Made by a program: the position numbers and the translations under genes. Of a stretch of DNA of 64,000 nt, positions 860-54,487 are shown in pieces. A model generated the notes under the pieces. It saw nothing but the letters and a program-made list of their open reading frames with translations. It was not told where the DNA came from and searched no databases. The stretch is taken from IMG/VR virus record IMGVR_UViG_3300032327_000792; one strand, given 5' to 3'. This DNA is from a virus (Duplodnaviria > Caudoviricetes). Position 1 is the stretch's first letter; each line of letters begins with the position of its first letter.

Positions 860-934
860 TGGCGTCCCGTAGGAGAATCGAACTCCTCTTACCTGCGTGA
901 AAGGCGGGTGTCCTAACCGATAGACGAACGGGAC
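860..934 (-). tRNA. tRNA-Glu(UUC)
   Basis: GTCCCGT...anticodon loop CTTTCAC...GTTCGATTC...ACGGGACGCCA; cloverleaf with encoded CCA. Confidence 0.95.
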
Positions 935-959: not shown

Positions 960-1139
960 TCAGCGGTCGGTGTGCCATGCCACAGGCAGTTGTGTGCGTG
1001 CATCAAGCATGGATCGAGCTCGATTGATTTTGTTCTGCACGAGTTGCTGTGTCTGCTCTTTGGTTAAAAAAGCGGAAGTAGCATCAAACGCCTTTTGGAC
1101 GATTGCTTCGTGCAATTTTGTATGGTCTACTGATTGCAT
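960..1139 (-). CDS. Hypothetical protein (59 aa)
   Basis: Hand-translated MQSVDHTKLHEAIVQKAF...WHTDR with AGGAAG SD. Confidence 0.6.
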   Translation of the reverse strand: MQSVDHTKLHEAIVQKAFDATSAFLTKEQTQQLVQNKINRARSMLDARTQLPVAWHTDR

Positions 1140-1174: not shown

Positions 1175-1458
1175 AACATGCCAGCTTATTCTGTTACGAG
1201 GAAAACTGGCCAAACCCTAAGCAGTGTTTAGGCTGCTAAAGCGAACTGTGCGTCGTTTGCATTTACGTGTTTTGCTTCTACAACCGGGTATCCCCAGTCC
1301 TAAGGAGTTTCACATTCCCCTGTTGTCCACTCATTTACTCTTTGTCCAATCGATTACCGGAGCACCCCCACCTAAATATACCTTATACACTTAGGTGGAG
1401 GTGATGGGATTCGAACCCATGTCTTGAACACTTTTCTCTTTGCTTCATACAACAATAA
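1175..1458 (-). ncRNA. ssrA: Circularly permuted (two-piece) tmRNA
   Basis: Acceptor piece (T-arm GGGTTCGAATCCC, CACCTCCACC ending near 1394) lies upstream of the coding piece starting GGGGGTG at 1369. The acceptor stem has G3:U70. Tag ORF 1260-1228 is ANDAQFALAA*. Terminal hairpin GCCAG...CTGGC at 1180-1210. Outer ends are approximate. Confidence 0.92.
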
Positions 1459-1462
1459 CTTA

Positions 1463-1493
1463 TATTTATAACACAAATGTCGAATGTTGTCAA
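1463..1493 (-). promoter_or_regulatory. tmRNA promoter (sigma70 with overlapping T4 late-type TATAAATA)
   Basis: TTGACA-N17-TATAAA; the -10 element is also TATAAATA. Confidence 0.75.
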
Positions 1494-1521
1494 ATATTAC
1501 GGTTTCGACATAAATAATATT

Positions 1522-2004
1522 ATGAAACATAAACATCATATCATTCCGCGCCACATGGGCGGAACCGATGATCCTACTAACTTAGTCGAGCTTACAGTCG
1601 AAGAACACGCCAATGCTCATAAGACACTTTACGAAGAAAACGGCCGCTGGCAAGATTATGTTGCTTGGCAAGGGTTGTCTCAACTATCTACTAAGCAAGA
1701 TTTGGTACCAATACGATTAAGCGAGGCCGGAAAAGCTGGAGCCGCAAAGTCTAACTTACGATGGAAAGATCCTGCCGAAAAAGTCAAGCAAAGCAAGCAA
1801 ATGAAAGAATCGTATTCTAAAAATAATAGAACAAAAAGTTGGAATGGCAAGTTGTATGAAATTACTACACCCGACGGTCTAATAGAGGTTGTTACTGGAT
1901 TAAAACAATGGTGTGAAGATCACAGGTTTAATCCTAATACTTTTGCAAATGCTTGTTTACGAGGAACAAAAACGCACGGTGGTTTCACCGTGCGTAAGTT
2001 GTAA
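1522..2004 (+). mobile_element. Free-standing HNH homing endonuclease
   Basis: HHIIPRHMGGTDDPTNLVELTVEEHANAH HNH motif plus a C-terminal DNA-binding tail. Start chosen at ATG 1522, just after ATAAATA. Confidence 0.85.
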
Positions 2005-2046
2005 AGCCCGACCCACCATGCATTTTTTCTAAAATGCAAAACTATA

Positions 2047-2202
2047 CTAATTATAGCCTTTTATCACATTGTTGTCAATCTTGGGATTGCCTTTTGCAAT
2101 GATTTGTTCTTTTTGTTTGGGAGTAAAATCAGGATGTTTGTCTTGATTTAACTCTGTTAATCTTGTGTTGTTTGGTTGAGGCTGTTTTTCTTGTTGTGAC
2201 AT
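2047..2202 (-). CDS. Hypothetical protein (51 aa)
   Basis: Hand-translated MSQQEKQPQPNNTRL...KGYN with GGAG SD. Confidence 0.6.
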   Translation of the reverse strand: MSQQEKQPQPNNTRLTELNQDKHPDFTPKQKEQIIAKGNPKIDNNVIKGYN

Positions 2203-2607: not shown

Positions 2608-2700
2608 TGGCGGAGAGTTAGGGATTCGAACCCTAGATGGACTGTTTAGATCCATGTCCGCTTAGTAGGCGGATGCCTTCGACCGCTCGGCCAACTCTCC
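2608..2700 (-). tRNA. tRNA-Ser(ACU), type II
   Basis: GGAGAGT acceptor stem, G73 discriminator, long variable arm (ATGGA/TCCAT), anticodon arm TCCGC-CTACTAA-GCGGA, encoded CCA. Confidence 0.9.
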
Positions 2701-50696: not shown

Positions 50697-51404
50697 TTAT
50701 TTAGCCACCAATTGTGAGGTCTTGCGAATTAATCCCGGTCGGATCAATGCCAGCATGGTCAACCAAGTGCGGTTGTTGTAGTCCACAAAGAAATAATCCT
50801 GTGTGCGTACAAAAGGCAGTGATAACCATGCTTTTAATGCAGGGCTAATTCTAATGTCAGGCTGATTGTTAAAGAAATTCAATAGTTGATCTTTTTCTCC
50901 AGCAGTCAGCTTGACATTGCGGAAATAGCTTCTGTATTCATGTCGAGGATTGAGCAATGCAATGGTATTTTTGGCACGCACAACCACAGCCTCGGTGTAC
51001 TTTGCCTCACGCACAAAAGGCAAACGTCCAATGCGTTCCAGCAATACAGAATTGTTGCTGTAAATCCAACATTGATTCACCGAAATTACTATTTTGTAGG
51101 GTTCAGTTACCTGTTGTAAAAAGTCAACAAACGCATACAATTCGTCACGAGTTTGATCAGTAATAGGCTGATGTTGGCGCACAAAGTTATTTTGTGGCCA
51201 GCGAGTACGCACACGTTCACGCCACTGTTTTCGGTGGTTCAGTATATCAGTGATTTTTTCAATGTCCAAGGTGTTACGCAACGCAGTGGCTTCATTCAGC
51301 CGCAAGCGTATGCAGTATTGCCAGTGATCGTAAAACAATTGATCACTGTCAATGGACTTAAAGTTTGGGCTTTGTTGGGTCAAGGACAATGTATCCATCC
51401 GCAT
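50697..51404 (-). CDS. Hypothetical protein
   Basis: 235-aa ORF; start uncertain (overlaps the clpA end). Confidence 0.65.
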   Translation of the reverse strand: MRMDTLSLTQQSPNFKSIDSDQLFYDHWQYCIRLRLNEATALRNTLDIEKITDILNHRKQWRERVRTRWPQNNFVRQHQPITDQTRDELYAFVDFLQQVTEPYKIVISVNQCWIYSNNSVLLERIGRLPFVREAKYTEAVVVRAKNTIALLNPRHEYRSYFRNVKLTAGEKDQLLNFFNNQPDIRISPALKAWLSLPFVRTQDYFFVDYNNRTWLTMLALIRPGLIRKTSQLVAK

Positions 51405-53634
51405 CTACCACCGGAACGGGTATAGGTTCTTGTATCACAAATGTCACTGCGTCACCGTCAAGTTCGGCATGCAACACACAGTCACTCAATCGGTCAAACA
51501 AAATACGTTTACTCAGTGGCACGCGAATTAATTCATCAATTTTGCGTGACAATGGTCTGGCACCCATTTTGGGATCGTAGCCTTTTTCCGCCAACAAATC
51601 AATCACTGCTTCGCTGAGCGTTAATCGGATGCCTTTGACACTCAAACTTGTTTGCAATTGATCCACAAATTTGATCACAATCTTTTTGATGGCCAATTGG
51701 TCTAATTTCACAAACTTGCACACTTGATCAATACGATTGCGTAATTCAGGTTTGAAGAACTCTTTCATGGCCCGGTCTTCTGATCCTGTCTTTTCCAGGC
51801 TCTGTCCAAAACCAATGTTGTTTTGTTCATTGTCACGGGCACCCAAATTTGACGTCATAACAATAATGCAGTTCTTTAGATTCACAGTTTTACCATTGGC
51901 ACTGGACAATCTACCTTCGTCCAACATCTGCAACATGATATTGATCACGTCCGGATGAGCCTTTTCAATTTCGTCAAAAAGAATGATCGAAAATGGATTT
52001 TTTGAAATGTCTGAAATCAGCTTGCCGCCACCTATGTTGCCGTCTTCAAAGCCCACATATCCTGGAGGAGCACCAATCAAACTGGATACAGTATGCTTTT
52101 CTTGATATTCGCTCATGTCGTATTTCAGCAACTGCATGTCTAAATTTGCACTTAATAATTTGGCCAATTCTGTTTTGCCAGTGCCTGTTGGACCCATGAA
52201 CAAGAACGACGCAATGGGTCTGTTTTCATTGCCGATGCCTGAGAAGTTGATATACACACGCTCTAGCACAGAATCAACAGCGGCATCTTGCCCGTACAAC
52301 TTTTGCTTGATATTGGATTCCAAATCCACAATCTTGGCTGAACGTTCATTTTGCAATCTATCCAAGGGAATATTAGCAACTCGGGACAACTGTGCCATAA
52401 TCATTTCTTTTGTAATGGTCACATTGCCCTGATCTTTTACACGTTGTCCAGCACAGGCTCCATCAATCAAATCAATTGATTTGTCGGGATTTTTACGATC
52501 ATGAATATAACGTCCTGATAATTCCACAGCAGCAGTCATGGCTTCTGTGTCAATCATCACATTGTGGAAAGTTTCCAAGCGTGGGCTCAATCCAATGAGA
52601 ATTTGCTCAGTGACTTCTGCTGTGGGTTCATCCACAGACACTCTATGGAAACGACGCATCAGGGCACGATCTTTTTCAAATGATTCGTAGTATTCTTCCC
52701 ATGTGGTTGACGCCACCACTTTTAAACTACCTTTGGTAATGGCTGGCTTCAACATATTGGCAAAGTCCAGGCTTGAATTATTGCCAGCACCTGCACCTTT
52801 CATGGTGTGCGCTTCGTCAATGAACAAAATACAATTGCCTTTGCTTTCCAATGCGCCAATTACTTGCTTGAATTTCTCTTCAAATTCACCGCGATATTTT
52901 GAGCCTGCCAACAAAGATCCAATTTCCAATCCCCATACTTCGTGGCCTCGAAGAAACTCCGGCACACGTCCTGCTATAATTTCCTGTGCTAGGCCATCCA
53001 CAATGGCAGTTTTGCCCACACCAGGATCGCCTACCATCAGCACATTGGCCTTGAATCGACGGGCCAACACAGTGATCATTTCATCCAATTCTGAACTGCG
53101 TCCAATCATGGGTTCCAGCTTGTTTTCTTGAGCCAATCTTGTGAGGTTGGTACAGTGTTCTTCCAACACTTCTGTGGCCTGCTGAGTGTTTAGCTTGACA
53201 TCCTTTTGGTTGTAGTTCTTGCCGTAGAAGTCCACGAACTCAGCTTTCTTTACACCGTACTTCAACAAGAAGTAATGAGCATGACTGTTGGTCTCGGACA
53301 TCATGGCCAAATAAAGATCCACTGTGGTAACACTGCGACGCCCTGTGAACAACACCTGTGTGAGAGCACGATTAAAACAACGTTCCAGTGCATTGGTCTT
53401 TTTGGGTTGTATGTCGCCTTGTTTGATTAGATTGACCAGGCTGTTTAAGTATGCCTCTAATTCTTCTTCAAACATGACCACATCCGTGCCGTATTTTTCC
53501 AACACTTTGCGAAAGGCAACATGACGAATCATGGCCAACAACACATGTTCTGTCAGCACATATTCATGTTGCTTGGTTCGAGCAATTTTGACTGCTTCGT
53601 CAACAATTTGTTCAATTTCAGGATTGTTTTGCAT
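51358..53634 (-). CDS. clpA: ATP-dependent Clp protease ATP-binding subunit ClpA
   Basis: Clp N-domain, two AAA+ modules (GDPGVGKT, GPTGTGKT), IGF ClpP-docking loop (NNIGFG), MGARPL. Confidence 0.93.
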   Translation of the reverse strand: MQNNPEIEQIVDEAVKIARTKQHEYVLTEHVLLAMIRHVAFRKVLEKYGTDVVMFEEELEAYLNSLVNLIKQGDIQPKKTNALERCFNRALTQVLFTGRRSVTTVDLYLAMMSETNSHAHYFLLKYGVKKAEFVDFYGKNYNQKDVKLNTQQATEVLEEHCTNLTRLAQENKLEPMIGRSSELDEMITVLARRFKANVLMVGDPGVGKTAIVDGLAQEIIAGRVPEFLRGHEVWGLEIGSLLAGSKYRGEFEEKFKQVIGALESKGNCILFIDEAHTMKGAGAGNNSSLDFANMLKPAITKGSLKVVASTTWEEYYESFEKDRALMRRFHRVSVDEPTAEVTEQILIGLSPRLETFHNVMIDTEAMTAAVELSGRYIHDRKNPDKSIDLIDGACAGQRVKDQGNVTITKEMIMAQLSRVANIPLDRLQNERSAKIVDLESNIKQKLYGQDAAVDSVLERVYINFSGIGNENRPIASFLFMGPTGTGKTELAKLLSANLDMQLLKYDMSEYQEKHTVSSLIGAPPGYVGFEDGNIGGGKLISDISKNPFSIILFDEIEKAHPDVINIMLQMLDEGRLSSANGKTVNLKNCIIVMTSNLGARDNEQNNIGFGQSLEKTGSEDRAMKEFFKPELRNRIDQVCKFVKLDQLAIKKIVIKFVDQLQTSLSVKGIRLTLSEAVIDLLAEKGYDPKMGARPLSRKIDELIRVPLSKRILFDRLSDCVLHAELDGDAVTFVIQEPIPVPVVDADGYIVLDPTKPKL

Positions 53635-53701: not shown

Positions 53702-54487
53702 TTATTGGGTGTGTTTGATTCGAATCAGATCCAGCAATTCTGAGTCAATCTTCGGGGGCAAACTGCCTTGTATCCGGATCAGTATATCGCCTTGCTGACC
53801 TGATCTATGGCGTAGTCCACGTCCTCGTAGTCGCAGCGTGGTTCCGGGCTGACACATGGGCGGAATAGTGAAAACTATTTCGGTGCCCAACACGTCTCTA
53901 ATTCTGGCATTGGTGCCCAAGATCAAATCCCACACCGTGGCAGTGTGTTCTGCTGTCAAATTAAGACCTGACCTAAACCAACGCGGATCAGGATGAATTC
54001 TAAATGAAACAATTAAATCCATACCACCCGGCGCCAGTCCTGGGTACTGTACAGAATCGCCATCATCAATGCCTAGAGGAATTTCAATGTCTACTGCCTG
54101 TGTGCCTGTTTGGGTGCCCACGGATACAGTTCTACGACCGCCCTGTGCTACATCACGCAACTGTATCCATAGGCTCATTCTGGCCTGCTGTGGCCTGCGT
54201 TGTCCTTGTCCAAAGCGTGCACCAAATATGTCAAATATTGTGTCAAAGTCAAAGCCCTGCGGTCCACCGTGTTGTCCAAACGAGCCAAAGTTAGGCTGTG
54301 GATTGTCGTACTGCGCTCGTGCTTGTGGATCGCTCAGTGTGCGGTATGCTTCCTCTATTTCTTGAAACTTCTTTACATCTCCACCCTTGTCCGGATGATG
54401 TTGGCTGGCCAGCTTTCTATAAGCACGTTTGATTTCGTCGGCATCAGCAGAGGTTTTTACACCTAGAGTTTCGTAATGGTTTTTCAT
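53702..54487 (-). CDS. DnaJ-class (CbpA-like) co-chaperone
   Basis: J-domain with HPD, G/F-rich linker, C-terminal domain, no Zn finger. Confidence 0.9.
   Translation of the reverse strand: MKNHYETLGVKTSADADEIKRAYRKLASQHHPDKGGDVKKFQEIEEAYRTLSDPQARAQYDNPQPNFGSFGQHGGPQGFDFDTIFDIFGARFGQGQRRPQQARMSLWIQLRDVAQGGRRTVSVGTQTGTQAVDIEIPLGIDDGDSVQYPGLAPGGMDLIVSFRIHPDPRWFRSGLNLTAEHTATVWDLILGTNARIRDVLGTEIVFTIPPMCQPGTTLRLRGRGLRHRSGQQGDILIRIQGSLPPKIDSELLDLIRIKHTQ

What the first reader, a model, noticed from the sequence alone, without database searches (positions are those of the whole stretch)
1175..1458. Circularly permuted two-piece tmRNA in a phage
Seen: the acceptor piece precedes the coding piece. 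A 24-nt intervening segment sits inside a CACCTAA...TTAGGTG hairpin. The acceptor stem has G3:U70, the tag is ANDAQFALAA, and the 3' end is encoded as CCT, so CCA must be added after processing. Known: permuted ssrA occurs in alphaproteobacteria, some betaproteobacteria and cyanobacteria. Inference: the tag looks betaproteobacterial, which points to the host. The ORF track misses this gene.
Basis: partly seen in the sequence, partly recalled or inferred. Interest (0 to 1): 0.7.

Follow-up and report, generated by a model that had tools for sequence, protein, structure and literature searches.

The report
Two-piece tmRNA gene in jumbo phage
An uncultured giant freshwater phage really does carry a rearranged ("two-piece") gene for tmRNA, the RNA that frees stalled ribosomes; such phage genes are already known, so the gene itself is ordinary, but it is a patchwork of parts shared with other phages and lies beside a selfish nuclease gene that tracks phage tmRNA genes.

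Summary
The gene lies on the minus strand at about 1457-1180. ARAGORN calls a permuted tmRNA with tag ANDAQFALAA. Rfam gives tmRNA_permuted 108.7 bits and beta_tmRNA 102.1 bits, both above cut-off; the alpha and cyano models fall below theirs.

The record is an IMG/VR virus contig with T4-type genes.

Two-piece tmRNAs in aquatic T4-like phages are already published (PMC9004378), and tmRNAs in huge phages too (PMC7162821). This scan has noted them before on other DNA (769 notes, at least 527 genomes). It is a new member of a known kind.

The host inference is weak:
- The type and tag resemble Rhodocyclaceae tmRNAs.
- The exact tag occurs in at least 63 viral contigs and in none of 401 sampled Burkholderiales genomes.
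- The tRNA-like-domain signature occurs in none of 185,579 species genomes.

Added here:
- The tRNA-like module is 98-99% identical to phages with unrelated tags, while the tag module matches other phages: the gene is a mosaic.
- The adjacent HNH gene belongs to a family that sits head-to-head with phage tmRNA genes and, in relatives, abuts a truncated tmRNA stub ending in the T-loop.

No RNA data could be obtained.

The parts
1463..1493 (-). Promoter of the tmRNA gene. It has -35 TTGACA (1493-1488), a 17-nt spacer and -10 TATAAA (1470-1465). This overlaps a T4-late-type motif TATAAATA (1470-1463). The transcription start is inferred near 1458-1456.
   Evidence: Read. The same TTGACA-17-TATAAT/TACAAT promoter sits between HNH and tmRNA in homologous loci L307, L316 and L319. 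Promoter activity is inferred, not shown.
1394..1457 (-). Acceptor piece. It contains the P2a 5' strand (1454-1449), the P2b 5' strand (1430-1424), the T-arm (1420-1404), the acceptor 3' strand (1403-1397), A1396 and CC (1395-1394). The terminal A is not encoded.
   Evidence: Rfam alignment and consensus fold of 12 viral relatives. The 5' end is inferred from the promoter.
1370..1393 (-). 24-nt intervening segment, expected to be removed by processing. Its outer bases extend the acceptor stem into an 18-bp hairpin.
   Evidence: Two pairs of the stem extension show compensatory changes (columns 68/92 and 72/88).
1180..1369 (-). Coding piece. It contains the acceptor 5' strand (1369-1363, G3 = G1367), the P2b 3' strand (1349-1343), the P2a 3' strand (1326-1321) and two hairpins in the PK1 position (1320-1304 and 1297-1284). 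These are followed by the tag frame, the stop-codon hairpin (1237-1220) and a terminal hairpin (1210-1180) with an invariant 17-nt loop. The 3' end is undetermined and there is no terminator.
1228..1260 (-). Tag reading frame GCA AAC GAC GCA CAG UUC GCU UUA GCA GCC UAA, encoding ANDAQFALAA then stop.
   Evidence: ARAGORN and the sequence. The identical peptide is encoded in at least 63 viral contigs.
1477..2004 (+). HNH homing-endonuclease gene, head-to-head with the tmRNA gene. The real start is probably ATG 1522, because homologs align from residue 10-16 onward.
   Evidence: phrog_655 at E 1.2e-15. Pfam HNH is weak, at 20.2 bits, below its 21.4 cut-off. 42 viral homolog loci were found and 15 have a tmRNA within 2.5 kb. 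The gene is absent from syntenic relatives L056 and L074.
960..1139 (-). 59-codon ORF with an AGGAAG ribosome-binding site, 40 nt after the tmRNA terminal hairpin. It may be co-transcribed.
   Evidence: No family match. Co-transcription is inferred from the lack of a terminator.
860..934 (-). tRNA-Glu (UUC). It forms part of the same-strand RNA gene cluster with tRNA-Ser(ACU) 2608-2700 and tRNA-Met 2712-2788.

Best explanation
This is a functional phage-borne ssrA gene of the betaproteobacterial permuted type.

Shown here: the gene order, the tRNA-like domain with G3:U70 and discriminator A, helices joining the two halves that keep pairing through compensatory changes, a conserved Ala-resume tag frame with a stop codon in a hairpin loop, and a sigma70-like promoter motif directly upstream.

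Inferred from established tmRNA biology (Keiler, Shapiro and Williams 2000, as cited in PMC9004378):
1. One precursor is made early, and perhaps also late through the overlapping TATAAATA motif.
2. Host RNase P cuts before G1369.
3. 3' processing trims to ACC, and the host CCA-adding enzyme adds the final A.
4. The roughly 65-nt acceptor piece and the coding piece of at least 190 nt stay paired through the acceptor stem and P2.
5. Host AlaRS charges the RNA. Host SmpB and EF-Tu deliver it to ribosomes stalled on broken messages.
6. The nascent chain receives AANDAQFALAA and is degraded by Clp-type proteases.

The likely benefit to a T4-like phage is keeping ribosomes free and recycling amino acids while host and phage messages are being cut.
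For: - ARAGORN permuted call with tag.
- RF04321 at 108.7 bits and RF01850 at 102.1 bits, both above cut-off; alpha and cyano models below theirs.
- In 12 viral relatives, 40 consensus pairs are predicted and 8 show compensatory changes, in P2a, P2b, the T-stem and the spacer stem.
- In 13 contigs the tag module is almost invariant, and the terminal hairpin covaries at 4 pairs.
- The precursor folds better than all 100 shuffles, z = -3.2.
- A virus record with T4-type DNA polymerase and a tRNA cluster.
- At least 140 IMG/VR contigs hold permuted tmRNAs of this kind.
- From my own knowledge: with the alanine that the charged tmRNA donates, the tag (AANDAQFALAA) differs from the E. coli tag AANDENYALAA at only three positions.
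Against:
- No SmpB on the 85 kb held, so function depends on the host protein.
- The phage copy scores lower on the permuted model than bacterial copies do (108.7 against 137-175 bits).
- It lacks the terminal terminator hairpin of the beta model.
- The 3' end of the coding piece is unknown.
Confidence: 0.8

Rival explanations
1. The RNA acts mainly as a decoy. It soaks up host SmpB or competes with host tmRNA to shut down host trans-translation, rather than rescuing ribosomes.
For: A phage tmRNA reduced to the tRNA-like domain (mycobacteriophage DS6A) is reported to inhibit tmRNA (PMC4131195; PMC11915505). No SmpB gene is on the record.
Against: The tag frame, its resume codon and the stop-codon hairpin are intact. 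They are almost invariant at the nucleotide level in 13 aligned contigs, and the peptide is identical in at least 63. A decoy would not need them.
Confidence: 0.06
2. The gene is kept mostly as a passenger of the HNH homing cassette. The nuclease cuts phage tmRNA genes and spreads with a replacement copy, so the presence of the tmRNA here reflects selfish spread more than benefit to the phage.
For: 15 of 42 HNH-homolog loci have a tmRNA within 2.5 kb. In 14 of the 20 closest loci the HNH stop abuts a truncated tmRNA 5' stub ending in the T-stem or T-loop. The tRNA-like module is 98.6-99.3% identical between phages whose neighbouring genes are 72-76% identical.
Against: Relatives L056, L074 and L044 have the same module without the HNH. 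Structure and tag are under purifying selection. A cassette explains spread, not maintenance of a working gene. The two readings are compatible.
Confidence: 0.1
3. It is a piece of bacterial DNA: either a host ssrA fragment picked up at a prophage attachment site, or a mis-binned bacterial contig.
For: tmRNA genes are common integration sites, and prophages can carry ssrA fragments (PMC9004378; PMC4383910, listed).
Against: - The gene is full length and has its own promoter.
- No integrase on the record.
- G+C is about 42%, with phage genes on both sides.
- The best bacterial match among the 120 loci compared is about 80% over 75 nt.
- The tRNA-like-domain signature has 0 hits in 185,579 species genomes.
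Confidence: 0.02

Closest known systems
Two-piece tmRNAs of aquatic T4-like myophages (Methylophilales phage Melnitz, pelagimyophages; Buchholz et al. 2022, PMC9004378)
   Same: A circularly permuted ssrA in a T4-related aquatic phage, placed just after an early-type promoter, with downstream genes possibly on the same transcript. ARAGORN finds it and ORF callers miss it. That paper counted 53 two-piece forms among isolated phages.
   Different: Melnitz's gene is of the alphaproteobacterial type and carries a glutamine riboswitch in its 3' part. This one is of the beta type, and no riboswitch family reached threshold. Here an HNH gene sits head-to-head with it.
Betaproteobacterial two-piece tmRNA (Rfam RF01850; Sharkady and Williams 2004, as cited in PMC9004378), found here mainly in Rhodocyclaceae such as Azonexus/Dechloromonas, Thauera and Accumulibacter
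   Same: The same acceptor stem and the same order of pieces. Spacers are of similar length (bacterial median 27.5 nt). ACC is usually not followed by A. The tags are similar: ANDERFALAA, ANDEQFAIAA.
   Different: - P2b reads UUCAAGAC instead of UUCUGGAC.
- The region between P2 and the tag is different.
- There is no terminal terminator hairpin.
- The score on RF04321 is lower (108.7 against 137-175 bits).
- The exact tag was not found in the sampled bacteria.
One-piece phage tmRNAs (mycobacteriophage Bxz1 group, Bacillus phage G; PMC4131195) and tmRNAs of huge phages (Al-Shayeb et al. 2020, PMC7162821)
   Same: Large phages carrying ssrA beside many tRNA genes. The same ribosome-rescue role is proposed.
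   Different: The one-piece Bxz1-group and phage G genes are standard, not permuted. Some huge phages also encode SmpB; none is on this record.
Free-standing homing endonucleases in phage tRNA regions (T4 SegB; named from earlier scan notes and my own knowledge, not read here) and group I introns with endonuclease genes in the tmRNA T-loop (PMC11915505)
   Same: A nuclease gene tied to a conserved stable-RNA gene. The T-loop is the break point in relatives. Flanking sequence is shared far beyond the genome average.
   Different: No intron is present. The HNH lies outside the mature RNA, on the opposite strand, with a promoter and an intact tmRNA behind it. Cutting has not been shown.

Membership tests
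Circularly permuted (two-piece) tmRNA | Gene order: 3' tRNA-like half (T-arm, acceptor 3' strand, ACC) before the 5' acceptor strand and the tag frame | tested here: met
   ARAGORN permuted call, Rfam alignment and the sequence.
Circularly permuted (two-piece) tmRNA | Covariance-model score above the curated cut-off | tested here: met
   RF04321 at 108.7 bits against a cut-off of 47.
Circularly permuted (two-piece) tmRNA | Alanine identity: G3:U70 in a 7-bp acceptor stem, with discriminator A | tested here: met
   G1367:U1399 and A1396. The pair is invariant in 12 relatives (columns 62/98).
Circularly permuted (two-piece) tmRNA | Helices (P2) that hold the two pieces together | tested here: met
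   P2a is 1454-1449 with 1326-1321; P2b is 1430-1424 with 1349-1343. Compensatory changes occur at columns 6/144, 8/142 and 31/122.
Circularly permuted (two-piece) tmRNA | Tag frame with an Ala resume codon, a hydrophobic C-terminus and an in-frame stop | tested here: met
   GCA at 1260 through UAA at 1230-1228, encoding ANDAQFALAA. Conserved in at least 63 contigs.
Circularly permuted (two-piece) tmRNA | Processing into two RNAs, CCA addition, charging with alanine, and SmpB-dependent tagging | not testable with these tools
No SmpB is on the record, so host SmpB is assumed.
Betaproteobacterial subtype (Rfam RF01850) | Scores above the beta model's cut-off and below those of the alpha and cyano models | tested here: met
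   Beta 102.1 against 84; alpha 31.1 against 50; cyano 33.5 against 70. The last helix of the beta model is not formed.
Phage-encoded gene (not host DNA) | Lies in a viral genome among phage genes, with no close bacterial copy | tested here: met
   IMG/VR virus record. T4-type DNA polymerase and other phage families. Syntenic viral relatives L056 and L074. 0 bacterial hits to the tRNA-like-domain signature.
tmRNA-targeted HNH homing cassette | Nuclease gene flanked by a displaced stub of the target gene and a restored copy | tested here: inconclusive
   Met in relatives: 14 of the 20 closest loci have a stub ending in the T-stem or T-loop. In this window no stub is recognisable: the alignment score was reached by 1712 of 2000 shuffles. 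Only the head-to-head layout and the presence/absence difference from L056 and L074 are seen.

The most novel reading that the evidence does not exclude
The gene is a chimera built by a homing cassette. A family of HNH endonucleases targets the T-loop region of phage two-piece tmRNA genes and spreads together with a promoter and a replacement tRNA-like module. This would copy one tRNA-like domain (98-99% identical) into phages whose other genes are only 72-76% identical or unrelated. The PK1 and tag modules are exchanged independently, giving tags that range from the canonical 10 residues to 28-31 residues with unusual ends (LAV, FAV).
Probability: 0.4. Interest if true: 0.55.

Novelty: new member of a known kind. 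Interest (0 to 1): 0.33.

Why it matters
For annotation, it adds a beta-type two-piece tmRNA to the genome of an uncultured freshwater T4-like jumbo phage, and it shows that ORF-based tracks miss such genes.

For host prediction, it is a caution. The tag and the tRNA-like domain form phage-only lineages, so tmRNA type alone should not be used to name the host.

The side observations could explain how phage tmRNA genes diversify and spread. These are the swapping of tRNA-like, PK1 and tag modules, and an HNH family tied to phage tmRNA genes. They also give a set of natural tag variants for testing what phage-made tags do during infection.

Tried and rejected
- Near and distant BLAST of the region against 50,697 deposited phage genomes found no tmRNA match.
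- A genome-wide scan with the phage-specific tRNA-like-domain signature found nothing in bacteria.
- The genome search 'relatives' is not available for virus records.
- The order-level sample gave no taxon names, so I could not tabulate which bacterial families have the permuted form. Only 4 of 151 genomes had a strong hit.
- The exact tag was not found in 401 sampled Burkholderiales genomes. This is a sample, not proof of absence.
- A search for the window's exact PK1-region sequence in viral contigs found nothing. Relatives at 86-88% came from the tag search instead.
- Sharkady and Williams 2004 is not held in the library.
- The tag string appears in no searchable paper.
- No SmpB, ClpP or integrase is on the 85-kb record. 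CheckV rates the record 24% complete, so absence from the phage is not shown.
- I considered that the hairpin plus GGUGGGUCGG element upstream of the HNH gene is a decayed tmRNA stub. The similarity is not above chance, so I dropped that claim.
- Small ORFs around the gene have no family match.

Full report
**Observation**

ARAGORN finds four RNA genes in the window, all on the minus strand. They are tRNA-Glu, a permuted tmRNA (1137-1485) with tag ANDAQFALAA, tRNA-Ser(ACU) and tRNA-Met.

Rfam gives tmRNA_permuted 108.7 bits (cut-off 47, E 2.9e-20) at 1454-1228. It gives beta_tmRNA 102.1 bits (cut-off 84, E 6.3e-30) at 1507-1154. The alpha and cyano permuted models score 31.1 and 33.5 bits, below their cut-offs of 50 and 70.

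The gene is on the minus strand.

**Anatomy (RNA sense, window coordinates)**

- Promoter: TTGACA (1493-1488), 17 nt, TATAAA (1470-1465). It overlaps a T4-late-type TATAAATA (1470-1463).
- Acceptor piece, about 1457-1394:
  - P2a strand UGUUGU (1454-1449)
  - P2b strand (1430-1424)
  - T-arm AUGGG-UUCGAAU-CCCAU (1420-1404)
  - acceptor 3' strand CACCUCC (1403-1397)
  - A1396, then C1395 and C1394. The next base is U, so the last A of CCA must be added.
- Spacer: 1393-1370, 24 nt. Its ends extend the acceptor stem to an 18-bp hairpin.
- Coding piece, from G1369:
  - GGGGGUG (1369-1363), with G1367:U1399 as G3:U70
  - P2b and P2a return strands (1349-1343 and 1326-1321)
  - two hairpins where pseudoknot 1 normally lies (1320-1304 and 1297-1284)
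  - tag frame 1260-1228
  - a hairpin holding the stop codon in its loop (1237-1220)
  - a last hairpin (1210-1180) with a 17-nt loop that is invariant among relatives
- No terminator follows. A 59-codon ORF with a ribosome-binding site starts at 1139, and tRNA-Glu lies at 934-860.

**Is it a phage?**

The window is the end of an 84,997-bp IMG/VR virus record that CheckV rates 24% complete. Earlier notes of this scan describe the same genome as an uncultured freshwater T4-related jumbo phage of roughly 310-345 kb; I did not test this beyond the gene content.

The window holds a T4-type DNA polymerase, a 5'-3' exonuclease and other phage families. G+C is about 42%. No integrase is present.

**Relation to bacterial tmRNAs**

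A pattern for the permuted layout with this acceptor stem hit at least 120 bacterial loci. Most are from Rhodocyclaceae or unclassified Betaproteobacteria (Azonexus/Dechloromonas, Thauera, Accumulibacter, Propionivibrio); a few lie in MAGs of other phyla (see noticed in passing). Their tags are ANDERFALAA, ANDEQFAIAA and similar.

- These bacterial genes match the phage gene only at about 80% over 75 nt.
- They score 137-175 bits on the permuted model, against 108.7 for the phage.
- A signature of the phage's tRNA-like domain (GTTCAAGA...GGTTCGAATCC...CACCTCCACC) has no hit in 185,579 species genomes.
- The exact tag is absent from those 120 loci and from 401 evenly sampled Burkholderiales genomes.
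- Not encoding the last A is normal for the type: 103 of 120 bacterial loci lack it.

So the gene is of the beta type, but it belongs to a phage lineage. The host inference is only a weak lead. Phage Melnitz is a published case where the tmRNA type and the host class disagree (PMC9004378).

**Relation to other phages**

The same pattern hit at least 80 viral contigs, most with an ARAGORN permuted tmRNA and very diverse tags. A degenerate pattern for the tag hit 66 viral loci, and 63 of them carry a permuted tmRNA with this tag (62 exactly; in L278 ARAGORN reads it extended at the N-terminus).

Structure is conserved:
- In 12 relatives, 8 of 40 pairs show compensatory changes, in P2a, P2b, the T-stem and the spacer stem.
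- In 13 contigs of the tag group, the terminal hairpin covaries at 4 pairs while the tag module is almost invariant.

**Mosaic**

- The tRNA-like module (1456-1318, spacer included) is 97.8-99.3% identical to L074, L056, L009, L012 and L044 (a 315-kb contig); L035 shows 98.5% by BLAST.
- L074 and L056 are syntenic relatives whose protein genes are only 72-76% identical in DNA.
- Their tags are unrelated: ANDELYALAA, or 28-31 residues ending LAV, FAV or LAA.
- The window's PK1 and tag modules are instead 86-95% identical to L293, L265, L241 and L261. The tRNA-like domains of those contigs match at only 67-87% over half the length.
- L261 combines the window-type tag module with the L056-type PK1 hairpin and a third tRNA-like type.

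One constant ratio of constraint cannot explain these opposite patterns. Module exchange is the simplest reading. The junction in the window lies near 1322-1318.

**The neighbouring HNH gene**

ORF 1477-2004 (+) matches a PHROG homing-endonuclease family. It is missing from L056 and L074. In those loci a conserved upstream hairpin plus GGUGGGUCGG lies 25-35 nt from the tmRNA start. In the window the HNH gene separates them by about 545 bp.

- Forty-two viral loci encode homologs, and 15 have a tmRNA within 2.5 kb.
- In 14 of the 20 closest loci the HNH stop codon abuts a truncated tmRNA 5' stub. In most of them the stub ends at GGGUUCGA in the T-loop.
- On the start-codon side lies the same outward promoter, often followed by a complete tmRNA.
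- The stubs resemble the window's tRNA-like sequence (87-97%) more than the resident full genes do (about 70%).

This fits a homing cassette that rebuilds the gene it cuts. This scan has noted the same theme for tRNA genes. In the window itself no stub is recognisable, and no cutting has been shown, so this remains a hypothesis.

**Mechanism**

The best reading is ordinary trans-translation with host factors, as set out under Best explanation. The processing, charging and tagging steps are inferred from established tmRNA biology. None could be tested here.

**Novelty**

Two-piece tmRNAs in phages are published: 53 forms among isolates, mostly aquatic (PMC9004378). tmRNAs in huge phages are also published (PMC7162821), and a 2025 database lists 79 phage tmRNAs (PMC11915505). 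This scan holds 769 notes on the theme in at least 527 genomes.

The gene is therefore a new member of a known kind. I did not find the mosaic or the tmRNA-linked HNH family described in the searchable papers, but that search was not exhaustive.

Noticed in passing
window 1456-1170 (-); loci L056, L074, L044, L261, L265, L293: The tmRNA gene is a mosaic. Its tRNA-like module is 98-99% identical to phages with unrelated tags, while its PK1 and tag modules are 86-95% identical to other phages with a different tRNA-like domain. L261 is a third combination.
   Followed up: partly
window 1477-2004 (+); loci L306-L347: The HNH gene belongs to a family tied to phage permuted tmRNA genes. 15 of 42 homolog loci have a tmRNA within 2.5 kb. 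In 14 of the 20 closest loci the HNH stop abuts a truncated tmRNA 5' stub that ends in the T-stem or T-loop. Homologs start near window residue 16, so the true start is probably ATG 1522.
   Followed up: partly
window 1999-2033 (-); L056 3950-3985; L261: A conserved hairpin (UGCAUUUU-AGAA-AAAAUGCA, with a compensatory variant in L056) followed by UGGUGGGUCGG lies upstream of the tmRNA in HNH-free relatives and upstream of the HNH gene here. Its function is unknown, and it is not significantly similar to a tmRNA stub.
   Followed up: partly
loci L056, L074, L012, L048, L306: Syntenic and related phages encode very long tags of 28-31 residues, some ending LAV or FAV instead of LAA (for example ANASTGEVTVSGKNVKFSARTVKAESFAV). 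These may not be standard degradation tags.
   Followed up: no
window 51358-53634 (-) and 53702-54487 (-): A ClpA-like double AAA+ unfoldase of 758 aa lies next to a DnaJ homolog. It scores 794 bits on TIGR02639, below the equivalog cut-off, and has an IGF tripeptide at residues 614-616 where ClpP-docking loops lie. No ClpP is on the record. A link to the fate of tagged proteins is only a thought.
   Followed up: partly
window 2608-2700 (-): ARAGORN reads the tRNA-Ser anticodon as ACU (A34), which is unusual for bacteria.
   Followed up: no
window 2047-2202 (-): The last codons of a conserved 51-codon ORF (...GNPKIDNNVIKGYN) spell a perfect TTGACA-17-TATAAT on the same strand (2078-2050). This is conserved in L056 and L074, so coding sequence and promoter may overlap.
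   Followed up: no
loci L091, L124, L127, L133, L146, L149, L151: The permuted-tmRNA pattern also hit contigs binned as Acetothermia, Actinomycetota, Clostridia and Acidimicrobiia. ARAGORN found no tmRNA in several of them. They may be mis-binned phage contigs or chance matches.
   Followed up: no
loci L265 and L299, just after the tmRNA: A GroES-like ORF (begins MQITPLKNKVLVAENK) directly follows the tmRNA in some phages of the ANDAQFALAA group.
   Followed up: no
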